Below, in pieces: positions 20-34,425 of a DNA stretch of 64,000 nt (the stretch's first letter is position 1; each line of letters starts with the position of its first letter). The position numbers and the translations under genes are program-made. The DNA is from Naegleria gruberi. Its lineage: Eukaryota. Under the pieces are notes generated by a model, which saw only the letters and a program-made list of their open reading frames with translations, searched no databases and was not told the DNA's origin. Location of the stretch: NCBI GenBank assembly GCA_000004985.1, contig GG738921.1; one strand, given 5' to 3'.

Positions 20-1967
20 TTGGTGAATCGGGATTTTTCCTATCTTTTTGATGATCATCATGAGAACAGTGATTTGGAAAGGGAGTGGTCAATCTTTGAA
101 GATCGTAATATACCATCCATTCTGATTCAATTGAATTTTTTAGAAGATGATTTTCCAATCTCTCATGTATTGAGATTCTTTAGACATTTAGTTGGAGAAA
201 AGAATTTTAAACAATGGAGTAGTACAGAAGCCGATATTATCATTAATTGGGGTTCGGAGGGAAGAAGTTCAATGGATTTAATATTTAAGGAACTTGATGC
301 TCTTTCGTCTATTAATTTGAAAGGCATGGAGGCAGAGAATCAGGAACAAACAGTAAGAGAAATGATCTCAAATTGGAGAGAAAACAAGAGGTTTTTCATA
401 AGTGAAAACGATGTTCTAAACCCTTTCCGAGTTTTTAAAAAGATTAAGATCAAAATTCAAGGGTTTCAGGATAAATTTTCAAATCTGTATGAGGAACACC
501 CGAGACCAATTCGTTGTAAAAATTGCATCCATGTAACAAGTTCCCATCCCAAAACATTTTTCAATGAATATGATGTGATTATGTTTAATGGTTCCATCAA
601 ACATGATTATAAAACATGTACAACATTTGACAATCTTCCAAGAGACAAATTTGAAAAATTTGATGAAAAATGCAGGCTTTTCTCTATAGCATGGTAGATC
701 AAGTGNNNNNNNNNNNNNNNNNNNNNNNNNNNNNNNNNNNNNNNNNNNNNNNNNNAGCTCTCCCCATTGAATACAATCTCTCTTCATTCTCAAATCATAA
801 CAACAAGATTAATGAAGCCTTGATGGTCCGAATGAAAATGATTAACAATAACACTCGAGCAGATGATGAAGGCATACCTGAGCTTCTAATCCCTAACATT
901 TACAAAGATTCTTCTGCTGCTTTCAACATCTTTATGGTGTTTGATAAATATACATTCAAAGAGGCCCAAGATGAAGGAATTATTACTGAAGAAGAAATTA
1001 AAAGAGTAACCGAAAATAATCCAGTTATAATTCATGGTGGGAATGATGGTAAACTAATTTGTTCTGGATCTGCCTTTTTGTTACATCCTTGGTTCAATAG
1101 ACCTCAAGAATCTCAAACTCTATACTTCGCAACAGCTAGACACAATCTGTGCAAACAGATATTGAACAACTATGTGATTAAATTATCCACAATGTATGTC
1201 ACTGAGCATGTGCAAACTGATGTGTATCATCAAGACATTGGTTTAAACAATTATGATAAAATTCTTGCCACCCCATTAATTAAGAAGGATGTTGAATCCT
1301 TAATGTGTACATCAGATCCAGATATAACTTTTTTCAAAATCCATCTAGATGGTTTTTCCAATCATAGAATGGCATTTGAATTCTTTAGCAAAGCAAGATA
1401 TTTCATTCCAAAATCTGTAACGCAACTTTCAACAATTAATGATGAAAGCTATAATGTTGGAATAGCTTGTGTATTAGGAAAGTGGAGAGATGTGGATTTT
1501 GAAAGGTAAGTATTCAATTATTTAAGTAGTTATATTTTATGACAAGATTGGAAAACACTAGCCCAAGTATTGAGTGGACTGAATCATTAAGGCAATATCT
1601 GAACTCAACTAATCGACCTGGAGGTGTGGTTTGGTCATTTGGTCAGTCAAAAGGATTCAAAACTATTGGAAACATTGACTATATTTGTTATAATTGTGCC
1701 TCTGCACCTGGATGTAGTGGCGGAGCTTGTATTTTAATGAATCCAATCAGTAATCCTTATCCGTCCAAAGAACAATGTATCTCATTCATTGGTGTTCACA
1801 GAGGGTTTAGTCCACAACATGACTGTAACATTGCAACTCCATTCTCCATAGCGAAAGATCAATACAAGACACTCATCTATGCCAATATTAAGAATGATTT
1901 GCCAAGAAAGGGAAGAAGACAAATAGAAGAGTTTTTGGGTGAAAAAGGATCTTGTACTGTATTGTAA
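20..1967 (+). CDS. Trypsin-fold serine peptidase. The protease domain lies at about 760-1967 and has one intron at 1506-1546 (GTAAGT..AG). Because of the N-gap at 716-755 it is unclear whether the upstream ORF 20-697 belongs to the same gene.
   Basis: Catalytic-triad-like motifs are in the right order: TARHNL (His), QDIGL (Asp) and GCSGGAC (Ser; GxSGG). The donor GAAAG|gtaagt and acceptor gacaag|ATTGG keep the frame into ORF 1539-1967. Confidence 0.5.
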
Positions 1968-6426: not shown

Positions 6427-7529
6427 CTATTGAAAAATAATACTTTCAGAAAGGAAGGGCATTTCTTCAACACTCTTCTTCAGTGAAAACTCTTCATCCT
6501 TTCCTCCATATGTGAATACTCCAATAAAATTATTGTTATAACCAATCACTCGAATTGTTTCCCACATTTTAACAAGTTGATGTTCAATAAAAAGGTCAAA
6601 TTCAAACATTTGTTCAATTTGCTTATTTCTGCAATGAGGAGATGGAAGGATATTTTCTCTAATTGCCATCAATTCAACATTTGTATATTTCTTCTTTAGA
6701 GATGTAATAGTTTCACCTTTAATCTTCTTTGACAATAATCCAAAATCAATTTTTTCTTTAAATTCTTTCAAAACAGTTTCAAAAGACACCCCATTCGATG
6801 AATTGACGAATGAGGCCATATAACTATGCGATGAATCATTTGAACTTGTCATTGAAAATTCCTTAGGAAGACAATATTCACACTTTTTAAAAGGTTTAAA
6901 GATTTTAAAGTCTTCCTCATGAATTCCTTGAGTTTCATCTTTACCAATAATGATTTTTACAAACAAGATACCAGCAGCCTTTTTTCCATCTCTTAGAGGT
7001 AACATTTCTTCGTATTCCTTACCATACTCCAATTCTTCCGATTTAAGAGTCCAAGATGTACTTCCCAGAAAATCCTTAATACAACAATTGATATAGTAAA
7101 TAAGTAATAATAATAATATTATTAAATTTGATTCAATTAATACAAACAAATTATGAACTTACATCTTTTGAGAATCGATCGTAATCATAAACTTCAAAAA
7201 TCACTTCAATTCCCTTGTGCTGCCTATCTAAACAATCAAGGGAATGGAACGTCTTACTTTCATTCCATGAGGGATTTAGATTTTCCATCACTACGGAAGT
7301 TCTTTGCTCCCAAACCTTGTCTGAATTATTTGGAGGCAATCTTTCCTCTCCGACTGATCGTAATTTAATCACCACATACTATTTTAAATCAATTCATGTA
7401 TTAATTATTAATTGAAAATTAAAAGCAATAATACATTACAGGGTCCGAAAGATTATTCAGATCTGATGCTTTGAGTCCAGTGGCTTTATATGGAGAAATG
7501 ATGAGAGTATCAATTGATGAGAAGGGCAT
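6427..7529 (-). CDS. C2-domain protein, paralog A: complement(join(6427..7074,7163..7378,7440..7529)), 317 aa.
   Basis: Exon 0 encodes MPFSSIDTLIISPYKATGLKASDLNNLSDP and splits DP|YV. Exon 1 encodes YVVIKLRSVGEE...LNPSWNE...FEVYDYDRFSKD, a C2 fold signature. Introns are gtaatgt..aaaatag and gtaagt..attaag, and the exon lengths sum to a multiple of three. Confidence 0.7.
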
Positions 7530-7659
7530 GATTGTTCTATTTTTTATAATGTTTGTATCAATTAGCGCCAATAAGTTAGAATTCTATTAAAGGAAAAACA
7601 AACAATACAAAAAGAAATCATGATGATTTCGATTGATTTTATTGTTATAGTGTGTAAAT

Positions 7660-8809
7660 CTAGAGAAAGAGGGTATTTTCTGAAACTCTGGCAACTTCAG
7701 CTTCACCCATTCTCAAAATACTATGAAGTGCATCTTGTGGTTCAATATAAATGTATAGTCCTAGTTTTCCATTTGAATGAGAAACAATACGGAAAGTTCC
7801 CCACATCCTTATTCCTCCCTTCTTTTCAAGTAAGAGAATGTACTCCATAATATTGGTAATTAATTTGTTTCTACAATGAGGATCTGGGTTAACATGTTCA
7901 TTCTTACTCTTAACTTCCACCTTGGAGTATTCCTTTTTCATGTCACTAATCTTTTGGTCACTCACTTGCTTGGCAATATCTGCAAACTTGGCATTGCTAT
8001 CGAATGGAATAAACTTGGTCAATAATACTTCAGCTCTCTTCATATCTGCAAAAACTGCATTATGCGCATCGGTTTCTTCACTTGAAGAGATGAGAGAAAA
8101 TTGTCTTGGGGTACAAATTTCAGCAAAACCAGATTGGAATGGGGAAATAAAGTTAAATTCCTTATCAACTCTATCTTGTTCATAACTCCAAATCTTGTAA
8201 CTGATATACAGTGTTCCCGATTTACAATCAGTTAATTCAAGGACCTCTGAATATTCCCTATCATGCTCAAGTTTATCACCATCAAGTAGAATTTCAGCTT
8301 GTCCAATAGGATCCTTTCAAAATGATGGATTGATGAATACATTTGAATTTAACACTTACATCCTTAGACAATAAATCCCAATCATAAACTTCAAACTTTA
8401 ACTTGATTCCCAAGCCAGTGTCAAGATACAATAAACTGTGGAATGTTTTATCCTCATTCCATTCGGGATTTAAGGTCTTTTTTTTGACGCTTGTTTTTTG
8501 TCTCCATTCCTTAGCTGTTTCCTTCATTATATCGTCAAATCTTTCATCATCAATGGCTGATTTTGCTTGTACAATCACATACTATTACAAGTCAATAAAC
8601 CAATACTAATTAACAATCACTTACAGGATCCTTTGGAAAGAGTCAATACATCAATCGAATAATAAATTCACTTACAGAAAATCCATTAAGATCAGCCTAT
8701 TACGATAATTAAGATGAATTGATAGCACCAATAAGAGTCAACCTACAGCCTCAAGATTTTTTGCGTGCTTGATTGTCACGGTTAATGTATCCATAGCTCT
8801 GAAAGGCAT
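7660..8809 (-). CDS. C2-domain protein, paralog B (tandem duplicate of A). Proposed structure is complement(join(7660..8313,8360..8581,8625..8630,8676..8696,8747..8809)), with two extra introns and a 6-nt micro-exon.
   Basis: It encodes MPFRAMDTLTVTIKHAKNLEA|ADLNGFS|DP|YVIVQAKS...KKKTLNPEWNE...FEVYDWDLLSKD|DPIGQAEILLD...PHCRNK...MWGTFRIV. This is collinear with paralog A (PHCRNK, MWETIRV). All junctions are GT..AG and the total length is 966 nt. Confidence 0.55.
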
Positions 8810-9121: not shown

Positions 9122-9866
9122 TTAAGCTGTAGTAGTGGTGTTTGAAGCAACTACTGGAGTAACAACAGTTTCAGTCTTCTTGGCCTTCTTAGATCCCTTC
9201 TTGACCTTCTTAACCTTCTTAGCACCCTTCTTAGCAGTCTTTTTTACCTTCTTAGCACCCTTCTTTGTACCCTTCTTGACCTTCTTGGCACCTTTCTTAG
9301 TGGACTTCTTAACCTTCTTAGCCTTCTTAGATCCCTTCTTGGCACCCTTCTTGACCTTCTTAACCTTCTTAGCAGTCTTCTTTGCCTTCTTAGTACCCTT
9401 CTTGGCAGATCTAACAGTCTTCTTTGCCTTCTTAGCACCCTTCTTGGTGGACTTCTTTGGTGTTTTCTTGACAGATCTTACAGTAGTCTTGGTGGACTTC
9501 TTGGCAACCTTCTTAACACCAGTTTTCTTTGGAGTCTTCTTTACAGATCTAACAGCAGTCTTCTTTGGGGAAGCCTTCTTGGTTGCCCTCTTTGTTGTTC
9601 TCTTGACAGATCTAACGGCCTTTGGCTTCTTTGGAGCAGCAACTCTAGTGGAGTTTCTTTGACTAAGAGTCTTGATAACGGTAGGTGGCTTCTTAGCTCT
9701 TGTGGTTTTAGTGGCTCTAACACCTCTAATTTTAGCCTTAGCCTCAGTCTTCCAATTGATAAGAATAAAAGCAACAATTAAAATTAGTACGTACAGCCAT
9801 AGTCATGCCGGCAACACAGGCCAACAAGGCAATCAAACACAATGTAAGGAAAAGCTTAGCACTCAT
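9122..9866 (-). CDS. Signal-peptide-bearing lysine-rich repeat protein with a histone H1 C-terminal-tail-like sequence: complement(join(9122..9748,9795..9866)), 232 aa.
   Basis: Exon 1 encodes MSAKLFLTLCLIALLACVAGMTMA, followed by a gtacgt donor and a 46-nt intron ending ttggaag. Exon 2 encodes TEAKAKIRGVRATK...KKASPKKTAVRSVKKTPKK...(KKGAKKVKKVKKGSKKAKK)n...TETVVTPVVASNTTTTA*. Exon 2 contains no Met, so exon 1 is needed for a start. The plus-strand ORF 9135-9662 is its antisense mirror. Confidence 0.6.
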
Positions 9867-10517: not shown

Positions 10518-11486
10518 ATGTTCAAGATCTCATTCGTCGAGTTTTCAACACCTCAAACAATTAAATCAGCCTTATCTTGTGAGGTCAAGAATAAGAACAA
10601 CAATTCTCCAAAGAAACGAGGACGACCACCAAAGAAGAAACAACAGGAAAGAGATTCAAAAGTTGTCACATCCTCAGAATCAATGAAAGATGCTCAAAAG
10701 AATGATGTAAATCATCCTGCTGTGATCTTGACCGAATGTAAGAAGAGGAAATTGGAGAATGTTTGTGAGCAATACAGAACTCCTCCATTGGTGGTTTCTC
10801 CTCCTTCACTGCATGTTGAGGAGGATTCTAATACTCAAGCAACAACAACAACATTAGCAAGGAATAGAAAAATTATAAGAACCTCAATATCGCTTAAAGA
10901 AATATTGAATTATAATGGACAACAANNNNNNNNNNNNNNNNNNNNNNNNNNNNNNNNNNNNNNNNNNNNNNNNNNAAAGATGTACATTAACAAATTCTCT
11001 ATTGTTGACTTTACTCCTGCTCAGAATATTCAAACAAAAACTACTGATTTACCAAAGAAGAGAGGTAGACCACCTAAGAATTCACCACATGCAAACAAAT
11101 CAATGTTTATTAGGTCAACTGAGACAATGCCAATGAGGTATGAATTGACGAATAGAATGACAGACCAATTCAAGAAGGATAAACGAAGAAGAAGGGAAAA
11201 GAAAGCATGTAATAGTCCAAACACATCTAATTGCTCCACATCTAGTAGTACATCATCTTTGACTATTGTGCAAGAATTGAATAATTGTTTAGTTTCAGAC
11301 ACATTAGTTTCGTCTCTTCCAACAACGCATGCATCCACTCCTCAATCTAATATCACTACCACTAACGACAATACAACAACACATCTAGAATCCAATCTTA
11401 TCACCTCCAACAATAACAACACATCCAATTATAAACCTCCAAGAAAGATAAGATATTCGATATCCATCCAAGAATTATTAAATTGA
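10518..11486 (+). CDS. AT-hook (GRP) protein with two similar modules, one on each side of the assembly gap 10926-10975. These may be one gene or two tandem genes. Module 2 starts at ATG 10979.
   Basis: Module 1 reads MFKISFVEFSTP...SPKKRGRPPKKK...KIIRTSISLKEILN. Module 2 reads MYINKFSIVDFTP...LPKKRGRPPKNSP...KIRYSISIQELLN*. Both carry an AT-hook core RGRP. Confidence 0.55.
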   Translation: MFKISFVEFSTPQTIKSALSCEVKNKNNNSPKKRGRPPKKKQQERDSKVVTSSESMKDAQKNDVNHPAVILTECKKRKLENVCEQYRTPPLVVSPPSLHVEEDSNTQATTTTLARNRKIIRTSISLKEILNYNGQQXXXXXXXXXXXXXXXXXKMYINKFSIVDFTPAQNIQTKTTDLPKKRGRPPKNSPHANKSMFIRSTETMPMRYELTNRMTDQFKKDKRRRREKKACNSPNTSNCSTSSSTSSLTIVQELNNCLVSDTLVSSLPTTHASTPQSNITTTNDNTTTHLESNLITSNNNNTSNYKPPRKIRYSISIQELLN

Positions 11487-11840: not shown

Positions 11841-13274
11841 TCAATTAGTTTCTCACCTTGCCGCCTTTCTAATTTTGTCCTTTAGCCAATTCAAGAATGT
11901 TAAAAGTTTTTCGTTGAGGGGATTCTTATCAAGGGTTCTCTCCTTAGTAATACTGTACAATACAATGCCAGCTACAAGAATAAATAAGCTCTCAATATCA
12001 AGGTTCGATAATTTTTGTTGGAAAGCAGGTCCAGCAATAAATCTTTAAAAAAATCAATTATTCGAAAGTAAACTAAATTACTTACGGAATCATAAAGAAG
12101 AGATTGGACATTACCAAACGAGAAGTTAGAGCAATCATGGCCAAAGTTGAAGATCCATGCTTGAAAACAACCAATTGAGTAACATTAAATAAAACATTGA
12201 AAACTTCAAATAAAATTGCAACCCAATAAACTCCATCACAAATGTCACCCTTCAAAGAATTCATTCCAACAACACATTTCAATGAATATAACATGTAATT
12301 AGGTAGGTCAGAAGCAGATTTCACAATACTATTTGGATTCCAAGGAATTAATAAAAATGGAATGAAAAATAAAATTCCAAATAATAATTGAAATAATTCA
12401 ATCCATGCGACCATATAGAAAACATCTAATTTCTCCTTTTTTAGATAATGTTCAATGTAAACATTGGCAATGGCTTGGAAAAATGTGGAAATTAATAGAA
12501 CGAGAGCCCAAATCCATTCTGTTGAGCTAGTTCCAGACCTTCCTGAAAGAAATAAAGGCAAAACATTTAAAATTACTCCAATGATTACAATAAAAGTTCC
12601 TCCAAATTGTAGAATATTATATCTCACCGATAAGAATATCATGGAAACGAGCATATTATTGATGATAATGGTTTGATTCATTGCCACGTTTACACTACCT
12701 GAAACATTTGATGAGGCAATGACCAATATCAAGTTTGCTAAATTCGTTAAAAATCCCATAATTACAAACTATTCCAATAATTGATTAGAAACATTCCTCC
12801 CATTTGAAAACATACTCTATAAACAGGAAATTTTCTCATTTCCTTTGTAACACTCCTAGTTCCAAACATTTTAAACCAAGCAATTGGCCAATAAACAATA
12901 TTTGACATGGTTGGAATTAAAATCGATGACAGGAAATATCCATAATGTTTCATTTGTGTTGACAATCTAACAATCAGAACAAAATTAATAGATCTAGAGA
13001 AGGCCATCACCAAAACCACCAAACACAAGGCCCCAAACACAACATACTTGTTGGTGTGAAGGAAATTCCTCACAGCACCTAAATTCCTTCGGAATGTTGA
13101 AGTTGTGTGAATTTGCATCTCACAATTATTGACATTTCCTTGAACAGAATTCTGATAACCAGGATCCTGAACCTCAACATGAAGACCTTGTTGCAGTTGT
13201 GAATTATTGTCGTTATGTAGTGATGGAACAATCAAGGGCACATGTTCATCATCTTTTCGTGCCATTTTTTTCAC
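11841..13274 (-). CDS. Multi-pass membrane transporter (about 10 TM helices). It is possibly CRT-like / nucleotide-sugar-transporter-like within the DMT superfamily. It has at least three exons at about 12762..13274, 12087..12759 and 11841..12045.
   Basis: ORFs 12762-13274 and 12082-12759 are hydrophobic throughout. A gtaagt donor lies at FFMI-CC| and an acceptor at tttttaaag|A, extending into ...PFIAGPAFQQ...LFILVAGIVLYSITKE...KIRKAAR*. The family assignment is by overall topology only. Confidence 0.4.
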
Positions 13275-13727
13275 ATCAGGAAAAATTGTCGTTTTTCTTA
13301 AGGTTCACAAGGAGTCTAGTTATGTTTTGGAAACAAGTATTGAATTTAAATTAGCCGGCTCCAGTTATGACTCATTATTTTGTTATGACTTTACGAAGAT
13401 AATTATTGGCAAAGAGAAAGATCACTCAAGAAAACAAACCATTCTATCATCAAATGAAAAGTGAGAACACTTTCAAACTGAATGAAGGAGGGCTTCTATT
13501 AATCAACTTATTTCATATAACCAACAAGAACAAAAGAGGAAATGTGTCCACTGTTTTAAAATGACTACACATGGACAAGTGTCCCCGACCTAATAATAAT
13601 TATGAACAAAATTTCTTCCTTTTCTGAAGCGATTTTCAAAGTCCATAGGCTAAAACCCAAAAGACTTCAGACCTACAGCCAATTTTAAAGATTAATTCAT
13701 ATAATATTTATGATTAAGAATGGATAG

Positions 13728-14499
13728 TGAGAGCATTTTATCACTATTCACAAATAAAAAATTAATTACACAAATTTTTTGTGAATATTTGTGGTAAAAT
13801 ATTTTCACAAATTTGTGTTTGTGTTTGTGTAGACAGGCCATTTTATCTTGCACAAATACATATTTTTATTAAAATTATTCCAACTAATGTCTATCTCAAT
13901 AGAAGGTATAAGTTGAAATCAGAAAGTAATTTCTACAATATGTTGATTCGAATGTAATGTATCCTAATTTAATTAGTGATGATGGAGTTGGTTCTGGTGG
14001 TGCGGAATCAATGAAAGCATGCTCCAAAAACAAACTGTTTTGTTCCAAATATTTAATTATTCCATCTGTTACTGCTTTCCCTCTTTATTTCACTTGAATC
14101 TTGGGTTGTTGGTGGTGTTGATGTTGGTTTCTCTGATGAAGGTTCTTCTTACATTTTTTAATATTTAATTAATAAAAAATGTATTAAACTTCTCCTTCAT
14201 CAAACGGGAGAAGAAATCAGCAACCATTAGAACCCGATTCATGTCCAATTCTTGCAACAACAATATTGATATCGGATCACATATTTCAAGATCAACGACG
14301 AATGAACTTTTACTACTAGATTCAAAGAAAACAACCTAAGATTCAAGACCAACAATAATTTATTATTTTAATAAAATACTTTTGTGTTTTCACAAATATT
14401 TGTGCAAGATAAAATGGTCTGTCTACACAAACACAAATCACAAATTTTTAAATCTGTGTAATTAATTTTTATTTGTGTTTAGAGATAAAATGCTCTCAG
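13728..14499. mobile_element. Non-autonomous TIR element (MITE-like), about 770 bp, with about 150-bp imperfect terminal inverted repeats and a non-coding core.
   Basis: The left arm 13728-13880 (gagagcattttatcactattcacaaataaaaaattaattacacaaatt...tgtgtttgtgtagacaggccattttatcttgcacaaata) is the reverse complement of 14361-14499 (...tatttgtgcaagataaaatggtctgtctacacaaacacaaatcacaaatt...taaaatgctctc). AGT flanks both ends and may be a 3-bp TSD. Confidence 0.6.
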
Positions 14500-15311
14500 T
14501 GTCCTGTTATTATGAAAGTTGCAGTTTGCCATGAAATCTATTGTAACAAATAAAGACCACTCAACAAGCAATCATTTGACACTTCTGTAATACATAAAAG
14601 AGCACAAATTATGAAAATCCTAAAATCACAGATACTATCATGTTCCTGTTAGCAATGAATTGTATAACTCAATTTGAGGACATATTTCAATCAATAATAA
14701 TATTCTCCATATTGAACTGTTTTTAGCCTTGTCATGCTAGTTGTGTTTCATATTCCTCTCCAATTTCATTAAGAACAGTTTTAGCACAGTACTATTATAT
14801 TGACACTCCCATTGTCAGATAAGGCGACAAAACCCTTTTCTGCCTTAATACTCCCTTCCCTCATTCAAGTGGGTAAATCTGAAATTTCTGCTGACTTTTG
14901 GAAGGCGGTTATTGACGCTAAGGAGCTTTGTGTGTAAACATGTAAAGTATTTTCAAATAAAGAAGTCCTCAAATGGAAATTCTGCTGGTTAAATGTGTAT
15001 TTGCGGTTTTAATGCACCCTTATTAAGGCAGTGACAGGAGGCGTATCCAATGGAGGATCACAATTAAATAATGGCACTTTAATTAAATCGTCATATTTGG
15101 CCATCCTTAACATCAGGTACGGGCAGTTAGAGGATACGAAATATTTAAATGTCTGTCCTGCGACACACATCCCCCAATGCTATTAGAGCTTGTGTGTTTG
15201 AATTGGATTAAGAGTAAGCAAAAATCTCTTCATCAACCTTCTCGTTTCACAAAATTTCACACACACACGAAGAGTTATAATTCTTCCATTTTCAATTACA
15301 GAAAAAAAAAT

Positions 15312-15851
15312 ATGTATAGCAAATTCTCAATCGTTCAATTTACAACACTCAGCTATATTCAGCCATCACATCAGGACAGCAACTGCCTGTGTATGGATGT
15401 TTCTTCTTCAAACAATTCAGCTAAAAATCCACTCTCCATTGGTCATAATCATGTTGAACTGATGCCAAAGAAGAGAGGAAGACCTATTAAGAATGAACCA
15501 AAATCCAACACCCAAATGGTAATTACCTCAACAGAAAGTTTGTTATGTCGGTCAATGAGCAATCGTCAAACAAATGTTACAAAGAGACAACACAGAGACA
15601 GTACATGTTGGGAGAGAAGAGTGAAACCAAAACCTGCAACAGTTACATCTCCTTCATCATCAATGGATATGCATACATGTATTAGCAATACTCCTTCAAT
15701 GCTCAATAGCCATACATATAATTACTCACAACCAGCAACAAGTATTCATGTTGAAAGCGAGGAGTTGCCTGCTTCTCCACATGGAACTGTGCAAATCTCC
15801 AAGAAGAGAATAATAAGAAGTTCGATATCAATTAAGGAATTGCTTAATTAA
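15312..15851 (+). CDS. AT-hook (GRP) protein, a paralog of the 10518-11486 modules (about 179 aa).
   Basis: It reads MYSKFSIVQFTTLSYIQ...MPKKRGRPIKNEPK...KKRIIRSSISIKELLN*. The N-terminal MxxKFSIVxF motif, the central KKRGRPxK and the C-terminal R(S/T)SISxKELLN match the other copies. Confidence 0.6.
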   Translation: MYSKFSIVQFTTLSYIQPSHQDSNCLCMDVSSSNNSAKNPLSIGHNHVELMPKKRGRPIKNEPKSNTQMVITSTESLLCRSMSNRQTNVTKRQHRDSTCWERRVKPKPATVTSPSSSMDMHTCISNTPSMLNSHTYNYSQPATSIHVESEELPASPHGTVQISKKRIIRSSISIKELLN

Positions 15852-16428
15852 GGTTTAGAGCTGTGTAGGATTGATAGGTCAATCCACATCATTCTCTCAA
15901 TTTACAAACCAACATTTAATTGGTCTAGTTCAGGACAAATAATCAAAAGATAGCTAGTTAAGAATTTCTGTAGATCTAATAGTTGATTCAGAATAAAGTA
16001 TTGAATAACGTTCAACATACAAACATGCATGGAAAGTGAGATTTTGAAATGATTAGTTACAGTTGTTGGTATTACAATAGTGGATGGGAGTACTTTTGTT
16101 GATAGGCAAAACTTCAAGTTGCGTTGATGATTTGTGATGGATTGTGACGAGTCAAACCCAACTTCTTATCATTCTCACAAAACTAAACACTTCATTCGAA
16201 AGTTATTTTCTCAACAATTACTTAGCATCGTGTAAGAAAATTTTACAATTTCAATAGCAGAACATTCCCTTTACCCCTTTTCGACGTTTACCAATCTACT
16301 TTTCCCTCTAAACCATTGACATTCACCAATTTCTTAACTGTCATCAAAATACACATCTCATCCATCACCTGATCAAATATTCTGCAAATTTAAAAAAATT
16401 AAAAAAAACAAATCTAATCACCATCATC

Positions 16429-17172
16429 ATGTCATCAGATCAAGTTTACGAAGATTCTTTAACCCCAGAGCAATCTAGAACTTTACGTTATTTCTCTGCT
16501 GCCAAGAGAGGACAAGTTTTGGAAATCCAAGAATTGCTTCAAGAAGATCCAAAGTTTAATACAGGAGCCTTGGATGAATTTGGAAATAATGCATTGGTGA
16601 GTTTTATGATGATGATAATGATTTAATTAACCATTATTATGTGATCTTTTTGTGGTGTATCATTTCCGATCATTGTCTCTCACTGCTGATCAATTATATT
16701 ATTCCTCTCCTATTTATTTGTTCATGATTTTACTTAATTTTGTTTTTTTTTGATTCTTCAACACCAATTAATGTTTTTTTGATCGATGTAAAATGTTTTA
16801 CAATCATGAATACTGCTTTTTCATATGAAATTGAATAATATTTTGATAATAATAATAATATTATTATGTGAGTAGCATTGGGCAGCTGGTGCTGGTCACT
16901 TGGATTGTGTTAAATTCCTTGTTGAAACTGTCAAGTTGTCAATTGATGCTATCAACAAACAAGGTGATACTCCTCTTCACAAGGCAACATGGAGAGGTGC
17001 TTTGGATGTTGTTAAATATCTTGTCGAAAAGGACGCTAAATTAGATGTTGTGAATGGTCAAAAGAAGAGACCAGTCGATTTGGCTCATCACTTGGAAGTC
17101 AAGTCCTATTTACAATCATATGAAGGAGGTGATGATGAAGACGATGAAGATGACGAAGATGAAGATGAATAA
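16429..17172 (+). CDS. Small ankyrin-repeat protein with an acidic C-terminus: join(16429..16596,16876..17172), 154 aa.
   Basis: Exon 1 ends ...DEFGNNAL|gtgagt. Exon 2 is agtag|HWAAGAGHLDCVKFLVE...GDTPLHKATWRGALDVVKYLVEKDAKLD (ANK consensus) followed by DDEDDEDDEDEDE*. The intron is about 279 nt. Confidence 0.7.
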
Positions 17173-17494
17173 ATATTTAATGTACCATATTATTTTGTAA
17201 AATAGCACAAAATTGATGGCTTAATTGACTGAATTCCTTTATTTGCTGTTGCATAGTAACAAATTCAAATTAAATTTTCAAAGTTAAATTTAGATATTTA
17301 TTGTTTGGATTTTGGGTAACGGAATTCATAACAGAAAAAAATACATCCAAATCAACTGTGGAAGGAACTACTTTGATTGGAGAAGAAAAACACATCACCA
17401 CCAATTTTTTGATACTCTTTTGATCTAATCAAATATAATTGTAGATTTAACTTGATCATTTTTGGATCTTTTATCAACTTGATCGGAATTGAAA

Positions 17495-20364: not shown

Positions 20365-23199
20365 ATGATGCAAGAACGAGACCCACACAACAAGGCAAAG
20401 GACGAAGATGAAGAGGGTAAGTGTATCATCCTATTAGAGGTGCGATGTATTTTTGATCATCAATTGTATTAATATTATTAATCATCATCGTGATATTATT
20501 TTAATTATTATTGGATAATTTTTGAACAACAACAACAATATTATTAATATTCGATCTTTATAGTTGAATTTCCATTCCAAAATTTGGAAAAGACTCAAGT
20601 CTTACAAGAGACTAGAATTTTCAACGAGTCACCTCTAAGTCCTCGTAAATGTGTTCTTACACTTCTCCAACTCTTGTACGTCATTTATCAAGGAAAGAAT
20701 TTGAATGCTACTGAAGCTACCGATGTTTTTATGAACATTACAAAGCTTTTCTTAAGCCCTGATGTACGATTGAGAAGAATGTTATATATTGCTGTAAAGG
20801 AACTTTCAAGGACAGCTAATCAAACATTTGTAGCAAGTAACAGTCTCTTCAAGGACATGAGTCAAAATCAAAACGAAGATTTTAAAATCAACGCTATTCG
20901 TTCATTAAGAACAATCATGGATGAAAATCTTTTCAGTAACCTTGAAAGACACTTGAAGCAATGTGTTGTTGATAAGAATCCAGGTGTTGCCAGCTCTGCT
21001 ATTTTGGCTGGTTTCCACATGTCCGATTCACAAAAAGGTGATCAACTTGTTAAGAGATGGACTGGAGAAATTCAATCAGCTGTTGATTCTCGTTTCCACA
21101 TGGTACAATACCATGCTTTGGCATTATCTTACAAACTTAGACATCAAGATGGTTTGGCTATCAGCAAGATTGTTTCCGCTGGTATGCAAAATCTCAGATC
21201 ACCTCTTGCTCATACTCTTCTCATCAAATATTCCATGAGGATTATGAGAATGGAAGGAAATATTAATTCTGATAGAAGCAAGGCAATTTTACAATATTTA
21301 ACATCATGTCTTAAATTTAGAAATGATATGGTCATTCTTGAAGCTGCTAAAGCAATTTGTACAATTAGAGATTTAGGAAAGGAACTTTCCGCAGCTATTG
21401 AAGCTCTTCGTATGTTCTTGTCATCAAACAAGCCAGTTAAGAGATTTGCTGCAATTCGTCTTTTGAATGATGTTGCAAATCATTATCCAACTCTTGTTTC
21501 TCAATGTAATAACGAACTTGAAAAGTTGATTGCTGATCCAAATAGAAATATTGCTACCCTCGCTGTTACAACTCTCTTAAAGACTGGACAAGAAACAAAT
21601 ATTGAAAAATTGATGAAGAAGATTCAAAGATTTATTCCAGAAATTCCTGATGAATTCAAGATTATTGTTGTTAAATCTATTGAATCTTTGTGTATTAGAT
21701 ATCCAAAGAAGTTCTACAGCATGGTTTCTTTCTTATCAAATGCTTTACGCACTGAAGGTGGATATGAATATAAGAAACAATTAGTCAGTACTTTGATTTC
21801 AATCTGTAAGGCATTGCCAGAAAGTAGAGATTTGATTGTTTCCTACTTGTGCGAATTTATTGAAGATTGTGAATATACCATTGTTTTGCAACAAGTATTA
21901 CACTTTTTGGGAGATGAAGGTACTCAAAGTACAGGTCCTTCTAAATGTATTAGATTTATTTATAATCGTTTGATTTTGGAAAACCCAACCGTAAGAGGAA
22001 GTGCTGTTATTACTATTGCTAAATTTGCTGCCAAGATTCCAGACCTTAGAAAGTCTATTTTGGTCATTTTGAGAAGAGTTTTACTCGATAGTGATGATGA
22101 AGTCAGAGATCGTGCTGTTTTCTACGTTAAGGCTCTCGAAACAAAGGATGAAGATTTGATTAGAAAGTTGATTGTTAATGACCTTCCAGATAATATGCAA
22201 CACTACTTCTACAGTGTTGAAAAGAGTTTGGTTAACTATCTTCAATCTACTCTTGATGAACCATTTGATCTTTCTGATGTCCAACTTGTTGATGCTTCTG
22301 CCATTCAAACTGAAGCTCCTACTGAAACTGGTTTGGAATCTGCTGTAACACAACCAATCCTTTCTGAAACTACCACCACTGAAACTAGCAATGCCAATGA
22401 TACTCAAGAATATGAACAAGCAATTACAAAGATTCCACAACTCCAAAATCTTGGAAAGGTTTTCAAGACAAACCCTCCAATTTACCTTACTGAAGTTGAC
22501 GCTGACTATGTAGTCTCATGTGCTATCCATGTTTTCGAATCTAATATTGTTCTCCAATATATTGTAAAGAATAGAGTTGAATCTCAACAATTGAGTAACC
22601 TTATTGTTGATTTGGATTTGGGAGATTTTGAAGATGTACAAGAAGTTTTCAAGATTCAAGCTGAATCAGCTATCAAATTTAATCAAGCCGAATCTACCTT
22701 TGTTGTTTTGAAGAGAGAAAAGGAAATTGCTACTGGTAAAATTTTCAGTACTCTCAAGTTTTGTACAGCCGATGTTGATCCAGAAACTGGTGATCCTTAC
22801 GATGAAGAAGATGAGAATGAAGACGAATTTGAATTGGAAGCATTTAATATTCGTGTTACTGATTTCGTTAGAAATATGGCAGTATCATCATTCAAAGAAG
22901 AATGGGATAAGCTTGGTGAAGAGTCCGAATTTGCTCAACAACCAATTGAATACACTGCATCAGATGATTTGCAAGCTGCTGTTGACAAGTTCATTTCTAG
23001 TGTTGGTTTGAGACCAATTGGTGACAGAACCGTCTCAAAGAAGACTCACTCTTTATACTTTGCTGGTAAATCAATATTCGGTGATATGGTTTTGGTTGCT
23101 GCTCAATTAGGTGAAAAGAATGGTTCTATACTTCTTAAATTATCTGTGCGATCACAAGGAGATTTGAGAGAAAGTATTGTTCAACAATTATCTGATTAA
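20365..23199 (+). CDS. copG: Coatomer subunit gamma (COPI): join(20365..20416,20564..23199), about 896 aa.
   Basis: It reads EKTQVLQETRIFNESPLSPRKC...LYVIYQGKNL..ATEATDVFMNITKLF..PDVRLRRMLYIAVKELS, which is collinear with metazoan COPG N-termini. The first exon MMQERDPHNKAKDEDEE ends G|gtaagt and the acceptor is tttatag|TTGAATTT. Confidence 0.9.
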
Positions 23200-26900: not shown

Positions 26901-29900
26901 TTATGTTTGTAAAAAGTTCAATAGTGATTCCAAAGATTCTGCAACTTGAATAAATTCTGGTCTTTGATTAGGTTCATTATTCCAACATTCTTTCATAATT
27001 TCGATATAATCCGAAAGAGATAGTTCTAATTTTGAAATTCCATATTTATCAATTTCCTTTTTTGAAATATTATTTTCGATCCATGCTTGATCTGTAGTAA
27101 TAATTCTTGGTCTATGTCCTTTGATGACTTCCATCAATATGGAAAATACTGTATTGGTGTCTGACAATTCATCCGAAAATGGGACCATTTCGTATAATAA
27201 TTCCCACAAAATAATTCCAAAAGAGTAAACATCAATTTTAGTAGTAGGACCTCTATGATGATTAGAAAGTAACTCCTATTAGAAATTATATTTAAATTAT
27301 TCAGAAATGTTATCAAAAACTTACAGGTGCCTTTTAAAATAGTTTAAATTAGAATTCGAATAAAACTTACAATATCTTTACATCAAAATTAAGAAACTGA
27401 TCTAATTTCGTATTACTTACATAATAGAGTTCCAACATTTGTGGTCATTGTTGCAGAATTCCCATTAACAATCTTACTTAATCCAAAATCTCCCACTTTT
27501 GCATTCATATTCTTGTCGAGTAGAATATTTGCACATTTCAAATCTCTGTGAATTATCTTGTTTGGCCTAATTGAATGTAAATAGACCATTCCTTTACATA
27601 CATCATTCAGAATATTTAATTTTGTAACGTAACTCAATTTCTTTTTTCCTATTTTTGATTCGTAAATTGCTCCATCTAAGGCACCATTCGAAAGATATTC
27701 CACCTTAATATTCAATTCATTAAGTACATCAATTGTATTCAAATACTTACAATCATATATTTTGATTCAGTGGATAGAGAAATTCCATAACAACTAACAA
27801 TTGAAGGATGTCGTAGGGAGCTCATCAATAAGGCCTCCCTTTCAAATTCTTCATCATCAGTGTCTGTCTTGAATTGCTTAATGGCAACATCTGTTTTGTT
27901 CCAAAGTCCTTTATAAACCACACCCGACGCTCCTTCACCAATCTTTTTCACGATAGTAATATCTGAAATTGGAATAATGTACCTTTCAGGAGTTTCATTA
28001 TTCAAACTATTCTCAAGTAAGGGCAAGTTTTCGATACCATTTCCAAATACAAAGTATTTGTTTTTGAATTGATCTTCAATTCTCTTCTCCGCCTTTTCTT
28101 GTTTTCTCAATTTGAACAACTTTTTCATTACATAAACGATTACAAAAATTGTAAAAGAAAAAATGATGGTGAGTGAGATAGTTCCCAAAACTGCTGATGG
28201 AATAATTATCTCAAATGGAATGGATTGACAGTAATAATACTTGCCTCCTCCCAACACCAATGAAAATCCTGCTGGACATTTCATTACTTCCACATTAACA
28301 AACGAGGTAATAACATCCAAGTCTGTAATTGAAAATCTCAACTCAAAATGGTCAGAATTGAAATCCTTATCAACGAGTAGGTATTGTAAATTGTTGAGCA
28401 TGATATATCCTTCTCCGACTTGATAATCCTGCTTTTGTAGAATGATATTCTTCACAGAAGAAACTACCAAAAGTGGGGAGTCACTAGAAAGCTTTGAAGT
28501 GCTTTGATTATATTGATCATAAATGAATAATTTGAAATCAAGTGGTTGGCCAGGATACACTTGAATGGATTTGCCTTCTGCAACTCTGAATTGACCATCC
28601 TGTCCTCTAAATTCAATTCTTTGGCTCACCAATTCTGAACCGATATCATTTCCATAATAGTAAGCTCTGTTTTCACCAATCATTCGATATTTCGTATTTG
28701 GATTTAAGGAACTCGATGTGGATGATTTGTAGATACAACCTCCAACTTGAAATGCAATATTATCCTGACAATAACTGTCAGTTGTGGCAATACCACTTAA
28801 TAGATTGAGGAGATAGATGGCTCCTCCCTTCTTTGCCTCATTTCCAATAAATGAACAGTTTGAGAGAGTTAGGGAATTACTGATCTCAATTCTAATGGCA
28901 CCTCCAAATTCTGCAACATTATTCGAAAAGAAACAATTGAAAACTATTAAGCTATTGCCATTGTAAAAAAGAGGTGAACCACCCATATTGTTTCTGAACT
29001 GACACGTCCTTACCATTGAAGCTGTTTGCTCAGATGTCATGATTGAAACAAAAGAGGAATCTTTCAGAACTCTATTGGAAATGAATTTTGATTCGTCTAT
29101 TACTATTGGAGCTACAATTGTATTAATATCCCAATAGATATCCTTAATAGATAGTATTGTTCCAGTATTGTTATTAAATGTACAATTAAATACTTGAACA
29201 GTTTTACCTTTTTGAATGGAAATCAAATTGGCAAATATATTGTTAGTTACATTCCAGTTTCGAATAGAGATTTCGGTAGAACCAATCAAGCTCAGATAGG
29301 ATTCGGATATATCACCAATAACTCGATCAATAATACTAATTCCATCCAAAACAACTTGAAAAACTATCATAATCTGAATAGTTGGAATGGAGCTAGCCTC
29401 TGTAATATTCAACACGTTTCCAGCATTGAAAGCACATAAAGAACTAGCTGTCCAATGACAATTGTTAATTTTCACAGTTCCAAAAAAATCAATATTTAGA
29501 ATTGCATTCAATAATTTAGAATTATCTATTTGAATAGACTCTGTCTTACTCAATCTTACTTTCGTTTCAGAAATGGTCGATTCAAATACTCGAAATGTCT
29601 CCACCATTGCATTTTTCAATCCAAAGTTGTTGAAATTTGACTGATTAATAAGTAAATTTTTCACATTTAATTCACTCATTACCAACAAATCACTATGGCA
29701 TTGATCAAAACTGAGAATTTCCAATTTCCTATCCAAACTCAATGCTCTACCAACTCCTCCATTCACAAAATGAAATCTCTCAATTACACTCTGCCTATTA
29801 ACGAGCCACTCACATCCAGGATATATAAAACCATTAGTATCCATTCCAATCCAACTCAATTCAAATCTATTGGTATATTCGGAAAAGTCAAACAATTGTC

Positions 29901-30279
29901 CACATTCATAACTTCCCTTCATCATTATTTTCATTTGAAATTTGAATAATTTTGATGAATTGCCAATAGGAAACATGGAATATAATTCATCGTTAGCAGC
30001 AGTGATGACTTGATGAAATACTTGACATGGTAGATTCACATCAGTGCATGTATTATTCTTCGGTTGTTGTGATTGGTTGGAGTCAATGTAATAGGTACGT
30101 TCAATACTCTGCTGTTGTGCTCCGACAAGAAGAACAACTAGGTGATGTATTAAAATTAATGACACGATGAAGATTTGTGCAATTGTTCGAGTAGACAAAT
30201 GGTGTGGCAGTAGTTGTGGTAGTTTCATTCTTTTTTGTTGGAAGATATTGTCCAAGGTTTTGTGTGTTACTGTTATCAT
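26901..30279 (-). CDS. Receptor-like protein kinase. It has a signal/TM N-terminus, a large ectodomain with parallel beta-helix-type GGAI/FxxN repeats, a single TM and a TKL-type kinase. Proposed structure is complement(join(26901..27275,27325..27330,27371..27375,27421..27703,27751..30279)), 1065 aa.
   Basis: Ectodomain repeats read FNCFFSNNVAEFGGAIRIE and SFIGNEAKKGGAIYLLN. TM reads IIIPSAVLGTISLTIIFSFTIFVIVYVM. Kinase motifs are IGEGASGVVYKG..VAIKQFK, HRDLKCANILLD, VGDFGLSK, GTLL-YI-AP-ELLSNH and DVYSFGIILWEL. The exon lengths sum to 3198 nt. Confidence 0.65.
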
Positions 30280-30617
30280 GGAGATGATTACAACTCTTGG
30301 GGAGGCATTTCAATAAAAATTGGAATGTTGTTGGATATTGTTCCAGAATTTCAAACACTGGTTAAAGCTCTCAGGTTGAATTCAACTGTTCGATTATTCT
30401 CGTATGGGACAAAAGCATTCATTACCAAATATATAAATTAATATCTTGATCCCAAATTCATGGCACAATCACTCTTGCATCAACGCTTTTACCTATGTCA
30501 TGACATTGTCTACTTTCAAATGATTGTAGTGTTGGTACTTTACTTCATTTCTTTGGAACGTATAGGAAGGTAAGAGAGGAAATTGTTTTTAATAATGTTG
30601 TTGCCTTAATTGAAAGA

Positions 30618-31262
30618 CTAACCTTGGTGTTCATTCTGTTCTCCATCTTGGGTTTCCTCTTCATCATTCCCTTCATCGATGAGAAAAGCAGACCGTTTGA
30701 GTGAGTGGAGTGCCTCACAGGTTTCAATCATATTATAGTAGGATTCGTCTTGTGTAATTTCTTCATCCCAATGAGGGAAAGTTCTACATTGTTGAGGTCG
30801 TACTGGATAAATTGAACAAGAATAAGTCACTTGTCCATCTTCTTGTGTTTGAGGTTTCAGAAATATGCATTGAACTCGTTTGTGAAAGGCTAAGGAAGGC
30901 TTATATTTGATAGAGATTGAGGTTTCATCTGATTGTTTAAGGGTTGACAAGGTATAGTTCTGAATAAATTCATTCGGAGATATTTTCAAATAATTTGATA
31001 TTTGTTTCACATTATTCTCATCTAGATAAATACGTATAGATCCAAAACCGGTACAACACTTTCCACATTGTGTACACCCTTTGAAATTTTCAGTAATTAA
31101 TTTCTTTCGTTCCTCCAATTTGTTTTTATTCCTATTGCATGATAAGTGGGTAGAGAAAAATTGTTTATTAAATTCCTTCCTCATTCCGACAGAACATGTT
31201 ATATTGTGTTTCAGCATTGCAGTCAAAATTGAAGCTTTCCTTGAGAGTTGTTGTGTTTGCAT
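30618..31262 (-). CDS. UPF0153/YkgJ-type CxxCxxCC putative zinc- or iron-chelating domain protein. It may have a 3' intron, as the stop context is QG*.
   Basis: It reads ...GCTQCGKCCTGFGSIRIYL...CIFL...YSCSIYPVRPQQCRTFP, matching the C-x2-C-G-x-CC ... C ... C-R-x-FP arrangement of that family. Confidence 0.5.
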   Translation of the reverse strand: MQTQQLSRKASILTAMLKHNITCSVGMRKEFNKQFFSTHLSCNRNKNKLEERKKLITENFKGCTQCGKCCTGFGSIRIYLDENNVKQISNYLKISPNEFIQNYTLSTLKQSDETSISIKYKPSLAFHKRVQCIFLKPQTQEDGQVTYSCSIYPVRPQQCRTFPHWDEEITQDESYYNMIETCEALHSLKRSAFLIDEGNDEEETQDGEQNEHQG

Positions 31263-33654: not shown

Positions 33655-34425
33655 TTACATCAATAAGATCCATCACACAACCTCAAAAGAAGAAGTGAGA
33701 AAGGACATTGGGTTGTGATGGAGTATATTGCTTAGTAAAAGGCTTGAATTTTGATTCAACTTTCAAAATAGTAAACCTTAATGAAAATATATTTTGTAAC
33801 AACAAACCACTTGCTCACAATGAGATTGATAATAAAATCATTTCCAATAAATTAGTATTATTGCAACAAATTGACCAATTAAAGCCCATAAAAAGAAAGG
33901 GCAACATTGATAGAGAAGAACTTGAAATGTTTATTTTAATCGACCATCTGCCTTCTTCAAGAAAGGTTTCCGATTACAGTGTGGTTGACCTCATTAAAAT
34001 TTTATAAACGAAACCTCTTTGGAATTTCCCTCTTCTTTTCCCGTATGTCAGTGCACACAGTTTGACCGTTTATCGTTCGTTGTATCTTTAAAATAAAAAT
34101 TGGCGAAAGCAATCATCACTTTATATTGACAAGGAACGAGTGATTCACTAGTTGACGACAATTTGGTCAGTTCATGAACAATACTCAACAACAAAATAGC
34201 ACAAACTTTTCATTTAGTTTTATAGTGAGAGCATATTGTCAATATATTCAATTCCTCCCTCTTCAACCTTCTCAATCATCATACGCTAAGCTATGAATCA
34301 CACTTTTTCAAATAATAATATTAATAATACAAGAAGAAAATTCATCAATCATCACAATAATAGTGTAGTATTACTTTAAATTAATACTAAGAGAAAAACA
34401 AAAAACAGACATACAGAGAGAGAGA

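What the first reader, a model, noticed from the sequence alone, without database searches (positions are those of the whole stretch)
13728..14499. MITE-like element with about 150-bp terminal inverted repeats and a possible AGT target-site duplication
13728-13880 and 14361-14499 are reverse complements of each other over about 140 nt. They share distinctive internal strings: cacaaatttgtg, an embedded tgtgtttgtgtttgtgt tract, and agacag(g/a)ccattttatcttgcacaaata. They flank about 480 bp with no ORF. Both ends abut AGT. The intergenic location between a transporter and an AT-hook gene is typical for MITEs. It may be an uncatalogued family.
Basis: seen in the sequence. Interest (0 to 1): 0.5.

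Follow-up and report, generated by a model that had tools for sequence, protein, structure and literature searches.

The report
Lone MITE-like inverted repeat in Naegleria
A 783-bp non-coding stretch between two Naegleria gruberi genes has ~150-bp inverted-repeat ends with paired internal motifs and looks like a decayed non-autonomous DNA transposon, but I found no second copy and no convincing target-site duplication, so mobility is unproven and the feature is fairly ordinary.

Summary
Window 13722-13880 and 14361-14504 are reverse complements: 116 of 128 ungapped columns are identical, with two indels (z=14.6; nhmmer E 3e-44 and 1e-39). It is the only short-range long inverted repeat in the 64 kb. 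The window comes from the amoeboflagellate Naegleria gruberi. The element sits in a 1.9-kb spacer between a CRT-like transporter gene and an AT-hook ORF that are transcribed divergently. Each arm carries an outer and an inner copy of a ~27-nt unit (GA[G/C]AG..CATTTTATC-N3-6-CACAAATA) plus many CACAAA/TTTGTG motifs. This layout resembles the paired transposase-binding sites of IR/DR transposons. The interior has no coding capacity and holds a separate, more diverged palindrome (14087-14249). My best reading, at about 0.5, is an old non-autonomous TIR transposon (MITE or foldback-like) of unassigned superfamily. Two points remain open. The AGT "TSD" is not significant: 23% of random boundary pairs do as well. 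Copy number could not be tested because the N. gruberi genome is not searchable with these tools, and every accessible collection gave nothing. A non-mobile local inverted duplication therefore stays a live rival. Interest is low to moderate.

The parts
13722..13880 (+). Left arm of the inverted repeat (159 nt)
   Evidence: Pairs with 14361-14504. 116/128 ungapped columns identical, z=14.6. nhmmer E=2.7e-44.
14361..14504 (-). Right arm of the inverted repeat (144 nt)
   Evidence: Same alignments. nhmmer E=1.1e-39.
13729..13756 (+). Outer repeat unit, left arm: GAGAGCATTTTATCACTATTCACAAATA. Putative terminal transposase-binding site (inference).
   Evidence: Pattern CATTTTATC-N3-6-CACAAATA has 4 matches in 64 kb, all in the element, with 0 expected.
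13832..13858 (+). Inner repeat unit, left arm: GACAGGCCATTTTATCTTGCACAAATA
   Evidence: Same orientation as the outer unit, about 105 nt further in ([I7], 20).
14397..14423 (-). Inner repeat unit, right arm: GACAGACCATTTTATCTTGCACAAATA
   Evidence: 21-mer identical to the left inner unit.
14470..14497 (-). Outer repeat unit, right arm: GAGAGCATTTTATCTCTAAACACAAATA
13759..13814 (+). 37-nt-period tandem duplication inside the left arm (AAATTAATTACACAAATTT / AAAATATTTTCACAAATTT). It accounts for the 29-nt length difference between the arms.
   Evidence: Family D2. Gap in the alignments.
13881..14086 (.). Left interior segment, non-coding, not complementary to the right interior segment
   Evidence: Score z=1.0 against shuffles. 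No ORF longer than 50 aa lying wholly within it, no Pfam match.
14087..14249 (.). Nested central palindrome with its centre at 14166/14167 and arms of about 80 nt. It is more diverged than the outer arms.
   Evidence: blastn self-inverse hit, 67% over 176 columns, E=2e-7. 59/75 ungapped columns identical, z=7.5. Perfect-centre pair I8.
14250..14360 (.). Right interior segment, non-coding. It contains an 18-nt inverted copy (14330-14347) of 14093-14110.
   Evidence: Pair I4..
13726..13728 (.). Left AGT, the candidate 3-bp target-site duplication (not significant)
   Evidence: Exact match with 14498-14500, but the null probability is 0.23.
14498..14500 (.). Right AGT, the candidate 3-bp target-site duplication (not significant)
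11856..13265 (-). Context: CRT-like transporter gene (N. gruberi XP_002669921.1). Its ATG lies 457 bp from the left arm.
   Evidence: tblastn of P0123 on the window. Pfam PF08627.
15177..15851 (+). Context: AT-hook (PKKRGRP) ORF transcribed away from the element. A paralogue lies at 10518-11486.
   Evidence: No Pfam family.

Best explanation
The element is the decayed remnant of a non-autonomous cut-and-paste (TIR) DNA transposon, in other words a MITE or foldback-like element. It spans about 770-790 bp (13722-14504 at most, 13729-14497 at least) and inserted into the spacer between two divergently transcribed Naegleria gruberi genes. Each ~150-bp terminal inverted repeat carries two same-orientation copies of a ~27-nt unit, one at the tip and one about 105 nt further in (about 74 nt in the right arm), plus many CACAAA/TTTGTG half-sites. 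By analogy with IR/DR transposons, a transposase supplied in trans by an autonomous relative would bind the four units, synapse the two ends and cut next to the outer units. What is shown: the inverted repeat, the four units, the motif enrichment, the lack of coding capacity and the intergenic position. What is inferred: transposase binding, past mobility, membership of a repeat family, and the superfamily. With 9% arm divergence and two arm indels, the copy is probably no longer mobile. Its present effect, if any, would be as hairpin-forming DNA or RNA in a shared promoter region.
For: (1) The terminal arms are 91% identical (z=14.6), while the flanking interior segments are not complementary (z=1.0). 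High-similarity ends around an unrelated interior is the TIR-element pattern. (2) The unit CATTTTATC-N3-6-CACAAATA occurs four times in 64 kb, all four in the element and 0 expected. It occurs as an outer and an inner copy on the + strand in the left arm, mirrored on the - strand in the right arm. This matches the IR/DR layout, defined as two transposase-binding direct repeats per end (PMC5224488). (3) 11 of the 32 CACAAAT sites in the window fall within these 783 bp, like the subterminal repeats of many TIR elements (my own background knowledge). (4) There is no ORF longer than 58 aa, no Pfam hit and no Rfam family. (5) It is the only short-range long inverted repeat in the window. It lies in the longest spacer I noted between adjacent long ORFs in the window (1911 bp). 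(6) The arms differ by a repeat-unit indel (37-nt tandem duplication), as in foldback-type arms. (7) N. gruberi has about 5% repeats, including DNA transposons that are mostly unclassified, and Kolobok is reported in the genus. An uncatalogued family is therefore plausible.
Against: No second copy was found in the window. None was found in 46 kb of N. lovaniensis and Willaertia DNA, in metagenome contigs, in GTDB genomes (one chance 21-mer in an archaeal ATPase gene) or in viral contigs. None was found through ORF translations of the arms. None of these collections holds the N. gruberi genome, so this is absence of a test and not evidence of absence. No statistically supported TSD exists. The termini match no canonical superfamily signature. 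No transposase gene lies in the neighbouring ORFs scanned against Pfam. The element as a whole also aligns loosely as a palindrome with a symmetric centre, which a non-TE inverted duplication could also produce.
Confidence: 0.5

Rival explanations
1. A local, non-mobile inverted duplication. A replication template switch or a foldback repair event copied about 150 bp (or more) of spacer DNA in inverted orientation. Later indels and a second small palindromic event produced the present nested structure. The reiterated motifs were already in the duplicated spacer, for example as promoter motifs.
For: The arms are seen only here in everything I could search. There is no significant TSD. The whole 783 bp can be laid out as a degenerate palindrome with a symmetric centre at 14166/14167. 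A synteny breakpoint relative to N. lovaniensis lies within 1.3-3 kb, so the region is rearrangement-prone.
Against: One duplication followed by neutral decay should give uniform divergence. Instead the outer arms are 91% identical, the middle is random and the centre is 79%, so at least two independent palindromic events at the same spot are required. The outer-plus-inner paired units at the very tips of both arms have no obvious reason to exist under this model. The unit and the CACAAAT clusters are absent from the other spacers of the window.
Confidence: 0.27
2. A host-functional hairpin locus. Either it is a long-hairpin RNA (siRNA source), or it is a palindromic cis-regulatory module of CACAAA/TTTGTG sites shared by the two divergent genes. 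It may have been exapted from an old transposon.
For: The strand folds very stably (-153.7 kcal/mol, z=-13). It lies in a divergent promoter spacer. Palindromic CACAAA-N-TTTGTG sites suit dimeric DNA-binding proteins (inference). Naegleria encodes Dicer-like and Argonaute homologues (PMC13315211).
Against: There is no Rfam match; the best is MIR8675 at 21.9 bits against a gathering score of 90.8. I had no expression or small-RNA data. The arms lie 457 bp from the transporter ATG and 673 bp from the AT-hook ORF start, which is not promoter-proximal. The motif is not enriched upstream of other genes in the window. The 9% arm divergence with large indels argues against strong constraint on pairing.
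Confidence: 0.12
3. A chance similarity or an assembly artefact such as a chimeric or palindromic clone.
For: The scaffold contains gaps elsewhere (N runs at 706-755, 10926-10975 and 46327-47520).
Against: E=5e-17 and z=14.6 rule out chance. Artefactual palindromes are identical, whereas these arms differ by 12 substitutions and two indels. No gap lies within 2.7 kb of the element.
Confidence: 0.01

Closest known systems
MITEs (generic class of short non-autonomous TIR elements)
   Same: Under 800 bp, non-coding, AT-rich, intergenic, with terminal inverted repeats and a strong hairpin potential.
   Different: Multi-copy status and a TSD, the two features that separate a MITE from any inverted repeat, are untested and inconclusive here. 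The 150-bp TIRs are long for classic Tourist or Stowaway MITEs.
IR/DR subgroup of Tc1/mariner (Sleeping Beauty, Tc3, Minos; PMC5224488)
   Same: Long inverted repeats, each with an outer and an inner direct-repeat unit of about 30 nt. As in Sleeping Beauty, the outer and inner units differ slightly in length (28 vs 27 nt, with internal spacers of 6 vs 3 nt).
   Different: No clean TA flanks the inverted-repeat ends: TA/TG at 13725/14500, and TA/TA only if the ends are moved out to 13717/14507 with a 2-nt indel. The termini do not read CAGT or ACAGG on both sides. No transposase partner is known. The unit spacing is about 105 nt in the left arm and about 74 nt in the right arm.
Foldback (FB)-like elements
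   Same: Long arms built from reiterated short motifs, unequal arm lengths caused by repeat-unit indels, a largely palindromic overall layout and no coding capacity.
   Different: The arms are not regular tandem arrays. There are 480 bp of mostly non-palindromic interior. No 9-bp TSD is present (best 7/9, null probability about 0.1).
Kolobok (reported in Naegleria; PMC9587614)
   Same: The inverted repeat begins 5'-GG and ends CC-3', which fits the RR...YY termini. A TTAA lies 4 nt outside the left end.
   Different: [quoted passage not shown]
CACTA/CMC and PIF-Harbinger (3-bp TSD superfamilies)
   Same: A 3-bp direct repeat (AGT) can be drawn. The right terminus reads 5'-CACTGAGAGC. There are subterminal motif repeats in both orientations, as in En/Spm. 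A TTA/TTA pair exists 5 nt outside the inverted repeat.
   Different: The left terminus reads TAGTG, not CACTG or CACTA. With CACTG ends the 3-bp flanks are GGA/TCC, which is inverted and not direct. AGT is not the TWA typical of PIF. With TTA as the TSD, the 5 terminal nucleotides do not pair.

Membership tests
MITE (structural class) | Short (about 800 bp or less) and without coding capacity | tested here: met
   783 bp. Longest ORF 58 aa. No Pfam hits.
MITE (structural class) | Terminal inverted repeats | tested here: met
   159-nt and 144-nt arms, 91% identical in ungapped columns, z=14.6.
MITE (structural class) | Target-site duplication of fixed length flanking the TIRs | tested here: inconclusive
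   AGT/AGT is exact, but 23% of random boundary pairs give an exact match of 3 bp or more. TTA, TA and a 7/9 nine-mer are alternatives.
MITE (structural class) | Multiple dispersed copies in the genome with unrelated flanks | not testable with these tools
   No copy in the 64-kb window or in any accessible collection. The N. gruberi genome itself is not searchable here.
Tc1/mariner IR/DR subgroup | Two transposase-binding direct repeats in each long inverted repeat | tested here: met
   Outer and inner units at 13729-13756 / 13832-13858 and mirrored at 14470-14497 / 14397-14423. 4 matches against 0 expected. Binding itself is inferred, not shown.
Tc1/mariner IR/DR subgroup | TA target-site duplication directly flanking both ends | tested here: inconclusive
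   TA at 13725 faces TG at 14500. A TA/TA pair exists only at 13715/14508, with poorly pairing terminal bases.
Tc1/mariner IR/DR subgroup | Autonomous relatives encoding a DD(E/D) transposase with a paired-like DNA-binding domain | not testable with these tools
   No transposase among the neighbouring ORFs scanned. The genome is not searchable.
Kolobok | TTAA TSD on both sides with 5'-RR...YY-3' termini | tested here: not met
   The GG...CC termini fit. TTAA occurs only on the left (13714-13717, not adjacent) and not on the right. Definition from PMC9587614.
CACTA / CMC | 5'-CACTA/CACTG termini on both ends with a 3-bp direct TSD | tested here: not met
   The right end reads CACTG and the left end TAGTG. 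The flanking triplets GGA/TCC are inverted, not direct.
PIF/Harbinger (Tourist-like) | 3-bp TWA TSD adjacent to the TIR | tested here: not met
   AGT is not TWA. The TTA/TTA pair at 13714-13716 and 14510-14512 (element boundaries 13717/14509) lies outside the paired region.
Mutator-like (long-TIR MULE derivatives) / Foldback | 9-10-bp TSD | tested here: not met
   For ends at GAGAGC or GG there is no 9-bp match. The best is 7/9 at 13720/14506, with a null probability of about 0.10.
Plant/protist MIRNA or other Rfam hairpin RNA | Match to a curated covariance model | tested here: not met
   The best hit is MIR8675 at 21.9 bits, against a gathering score of 90.8, E=0.75.

The most novel reading that the evidence does not exclude
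The element is the first recognised member of an uncatalogued Naegleria (Heterolobosea) MITE family with an IR/DR-type end architecture. That would imply a still-unidentified transposase lineage that assembles on four binding sites. It might also serve as a long-hairpin siRNA source sitting in a shared promoter.
Probability: 0.2. Interest if true: 0.4.

Novelty: new member of a known kind. Interest (0 to 1): 0.22.

Why it matters
If the arms prove to be multi-copy, this would define a new non-autonomous DNA-transposon family in Naegleria gruberi. Most repeats in that genome are still unclassified. The family would have an IR/DR-like four-site end structure outside the animal and fungal Tc1/mariner elements where that architecture has been studied. 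Its termini would then be a handle for finding the autonomous partner and possibly for building transposon tools, since Naegleria lacks genetic tools (PMC13315211). If it is single-copy, it is just a local inverted duplication in a rearrangement-prone spacer and of little wider interest.

Tried and rejected
1. Plant-MITE framing. Rejected: the coatomer gamma ORF (20584-23199) is 100% identical to the N. gruberi protein.

2. Orthologous empty site. I fetched the N. lovaniensis (L002) and Willaertia (L003) loci around coatomer gamma. Synteny breaks between the USP gene and the AT-hook ORF, so the orthologous spacer is not there. The CRT-like exon had no orthologue in the word-indexed search.

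3. Other-strain contig. The ENA metagenome contig L001 (99% identical protein) stops about 390 bp short of the element.

4. Paralogous empty site next to the second AT-hook gene. There is no flank similarity.

5. Copy hunting:
- A specific terminal pattern in metagenomes gave 0 hits.
The fetched loci showed no extended similarity, and L015 is an unrelated tandem duplication.
- GTDB genomes gave one chance 21-mer inside an archaeal ATPase gene.
- Viral contigs gave 0 hits.
- Exact look-up of 9 local window ORFs found none of them in the collection; only the ENA-contig ORF included as a control was present.
- phmmer of the arm-spanning ORF against 1.84 billion representatives gave 0 hits.
- A chimeric six-frame arm-peptide query against 5.8 billion proteins gave nothing at E<=10.
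- A literal-sequence search of the literature gave 0 papers.
- nhmmer with an arm profile found only the two arms.

6. The 34222-34245 match to the left terminus (21/24) is not significant (E 0.16 to 5).

7. TSDs of 2-10 bp at all boundaries: none exceeds chance.

8. The central palindrome as a nested MITE: only a CTT/CTT flank match, which is not meaningful.

9. Rfam gave nothing.

10. The N. gruberi genome paper (Fritz-Laylin 2010) is not held in the library.

Full report
**Observation.** Reading the region and running repeat searches confirm two reverse-complementary blocks. Gapped alignment pairs 13722-13880 with 14361-14504. Of 128 ungapped columns, 116 are identical (91%). The alignment score lies 14.6 SD above shuffles. 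blastn gives E=5e-17 within the window, and an nhmmer profile of the arms gives 2.7e-44 and 1.1e-39. The arms differ by two indels:
- a 29-nt insertion in the left arm, part of a 37-nt tandem duplication (13759-13777 / 13796-13814);
- a 15-nt insertion in the right arm.

A window-wide self-comparison shows this is the only short-range long inverted repeat in the 64 kb. As single-stranded DNA the 797-nt stretch folds at -153.7 kcal/mol, z=-13.1.

**Where it is.** The 871-aa ORF at 20584-23199 is 100% identical to the annotated coatomer gamma subunit of Naegleria gruberi, on a 207-kb scaffold. To the left lies the CRT-like transporter XP_002669921.1 on the minus strand (Pfam PF08627), with its ATG at 13265. 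To the right lies an ORF with a PKKRGRP AT-hook core on the plus strand at 15177-15851. A paralogue of that ORF sits at 10518-11486. The element therefore lies in a 1911-bp divergent spacer, the longest I noted between adjacent long ORFs in the window. The neighbouring ORFs I scanned against Pfam contain no transposase. The only tRNA gene is 31 kb away.

**Anatomy.** The arms are not featureless.
- The pattern CATTTTATC-N3-6-CACAAATA occurs four times in the window, all four in the element, with 0 expected by shuffling.
- With their GA[G/C]AG prefix these sites form 27-28-nt units. An outer unit sits at each tip (13729-13756 and 14470-14497). An inner unit lies about 105 nt further in on the left arm and about 74 nt on the right arm (13832-13858 and 14397-14423).
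- Both units of an arm share one orientation.
- The heptamer CACAAAT and its complement occur 32 times in the window, and 11 of these fall inside the 783 bp, often as CACAAA-N-TTTGTG palindromes.
- The interior (13881-14360) has no ORF longer than 50 aa lying wholly inside it, no Pfam match and no Rfam match.
- The segments next to the arms (13881-14086 vs 14250-14360) are not complementary (z=1.0).
- A separate central palindrome, 14087-14166 | 14167-14249, is significant but more diverged (59/75 identical, z=7.5).

The structure is therefore a pair of nested inverted repeats. One uniformly decayed palindrome would not look like this.

**Interpretation.** Highly similar ends around an unrelated, non-coding interior, paired outer and inner units at the tips of both ends, and dense subterminal motif repeats together describe a non-autonomous TIR DNA transposon. 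The four-unit arrangement parallels the IR/DR subgroup of Tc1/mariner. In that subgroup each inverted repeat holds two transposase-binding direct repeats, and the outer and inner sites differ slightly in length (PMC5224488). The likely mechanism is inferred, not shown. A transposase supplied in trans binds the four units, pairs the ends and cuts beside the outer units. With 9% arm divergence and arm indels, this copy is probably immobile now.

**What could not be shown: the TSD.** The AGT duplication is not evidence. When nine symmetric boundaries are allowed, 23% of random site pairs in this window give an exact direct repeat of 3 bp or more. Equally good alternatives exist:
- TTA/TTA at boundaries 13717/14509;
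- TA/TA at 13715/14508;
- a 7/9 nine-mer at 13720/14506, with a null probability of about 0.10.

The inverted repeat itself also runs through the AGT out to GG...CC at 13722/14504.

**What could not be shown: copy number.** The N. gruberi genome is not in any DNA collection the tools search. The protein collection holds only its annotated proteins. Every indirect route was empty:
- the window itself;
- 46 kb of N. lovaniensis and Willaertia DNA;
- two metagenome scans;
- GTDB genomes, where one 21-mer fell in an archaeal ATPase gene, consistent with my rough estimate of about 0.3 chance hits;
- viral contigs;
- phmmer of the arm-spanning ORF against 1.84 billion representatives;
- a chimeric six-frame arm-peptide query against 5.8 billion proteins;
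- a literal-sequence search of the literature.

These results are absence of a test. They are not evidence that the arms are unique.

**Comparative attempts.** The N. lovaniensis and Willaertia loci around coatomer gamma show that synteny breaks between the USP gene and the AT-hook ORF. The orthologous spacer was therefore not recovered. The ENA metagenome contig from a strain whose transporter exon is 99% identical at the protein level ends about 390 bp short of the element. The paralogous AT-hook gene has no similar upstream flank that could serve as an empty site.

**Superfamily.** None fits.
- Kolobok is reported in Naegleria and is defined by a TTAA TSD and RR...YY termini (PMC9587614). 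It matches only in the GG...CC termini, and there is no TTAA on the right.
- CACTA fails. The right end reads CACTG, the left end reads TAGTG, and the flanking triplets are inverted rather than direct.
- PIF/Harbinger fails because AGT is not TWA.
- MULE and Foldback fail for lack of a 9-bp TSD.
- For Tc1/mariner, the TA flanks are ambiguous.

I therefore file it only under the structural class (MITE or foldback-like, IR/DR-like ends) and leave the superfamily open.

**Rivals.**
- A non-mobile local inverted duplication (0.27) explains the lack of copies and of a TSD. It needs at least two independent palindromic events and does not explain the tip-located paired units.
- A host-functional hairpin RNA or palindromic regulatory module (0.12) is compatible with the strong fold, the promoter-region position and the presence of Dicer and Argonaute homologues in Naegleria. 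It has no direct support and no Rfam match.
- Chance or an assembly artefact is excluded by the statistics and by the imperfect arms.

**Verdict.** The MITE reading is structurally supported but unproven. At best this is a new member of a known kind of element in a genome whose repeats are poorly catalogued (about 5% repeats, few classified). Interest is low to moderate (0.22). One BLASTN of the arm against the N. gruberi assembly would settle it.

Noticed in passing
window 15851-17489, compared with L002 1-10000: Synteny with N. lovaniensis breaks just right of the AT-hook ORF. In N. lovaniensis the USP/coatomer pair is preceded by a receptor-kinase gene and a CxxCxxCC gene. In N. gruberi those two genes lie at 27739-31262, on the other side of the block.
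   Followed up: partly
window 10518-11486 and 15177-15851: Two AT-hook paralogues flank the CRT-like gene. The first contains an internal duplication of the module FSIVxF...PKKRGRPPK...SIS[IL]KE[IL]LN. Neither has a Pfam family.
   Followed up: partly
window 34222-34245: ATAGTGAGAGCATaTTgTCAaTAT matches the element's left terminus at 21 of 24 positions, about 200 bp upstream of the ORF at 34426. It is not significant (blastn E=0.16, nhmmer E=5) and has no inverted partner nearby.
   Followed up: yes
window 11856-13265: The CRT-like transporter exon found no orthologue from other Naegleria species in the word-indexed protein search. It found only its own annotated protein and an ENA metagenome strain 99% identical at the protein level (ERZ929261). 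The gene may be lineage-specific or fast-evolving.
   Followed up: no
window 9135-9662: An odd hydrophobic repetitive ORF (FLAFLDPFL...) overlaps a 328-nt direct repeat (9164-9481 vs 9311-9616, 69% identical). It is probably the antisense strand of a repetitive coding region, or a tandem-repeat array.
   Followed up: no
window 6427-8617: Paralogous ORFs at 6427-7149 and 7660-8043 share HCRNK-containing motifs, with a diverged direct repeat between 7136-7412 and 8333-8617 (62%). This looks like a local tandem gene duplication.
   Followed up: no
window 27483-27981 and 47808-48259: Protein-kinase domains of two receptor-like genes are detectably similar at the DNA level in inverted orientation, 20 kb apart (61% over 511 nt).
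   Followed up: no
window 706-755, 10926-10975, 46327-47520: Assembly gaps (N runs). The large one interrupts an ORF beginning at 45841.
   Followed up: no
L124 632-652: An archaeal MAG contig shares an exact 21-mer with the inner unit. The 21-mer lies inside an ATPase coding sequence (translation ...IPFYLAQI...). It is a chance match, and a reminder that 21-mer hits in a 596-Gb collection need extension checks.
   Followed up: yes
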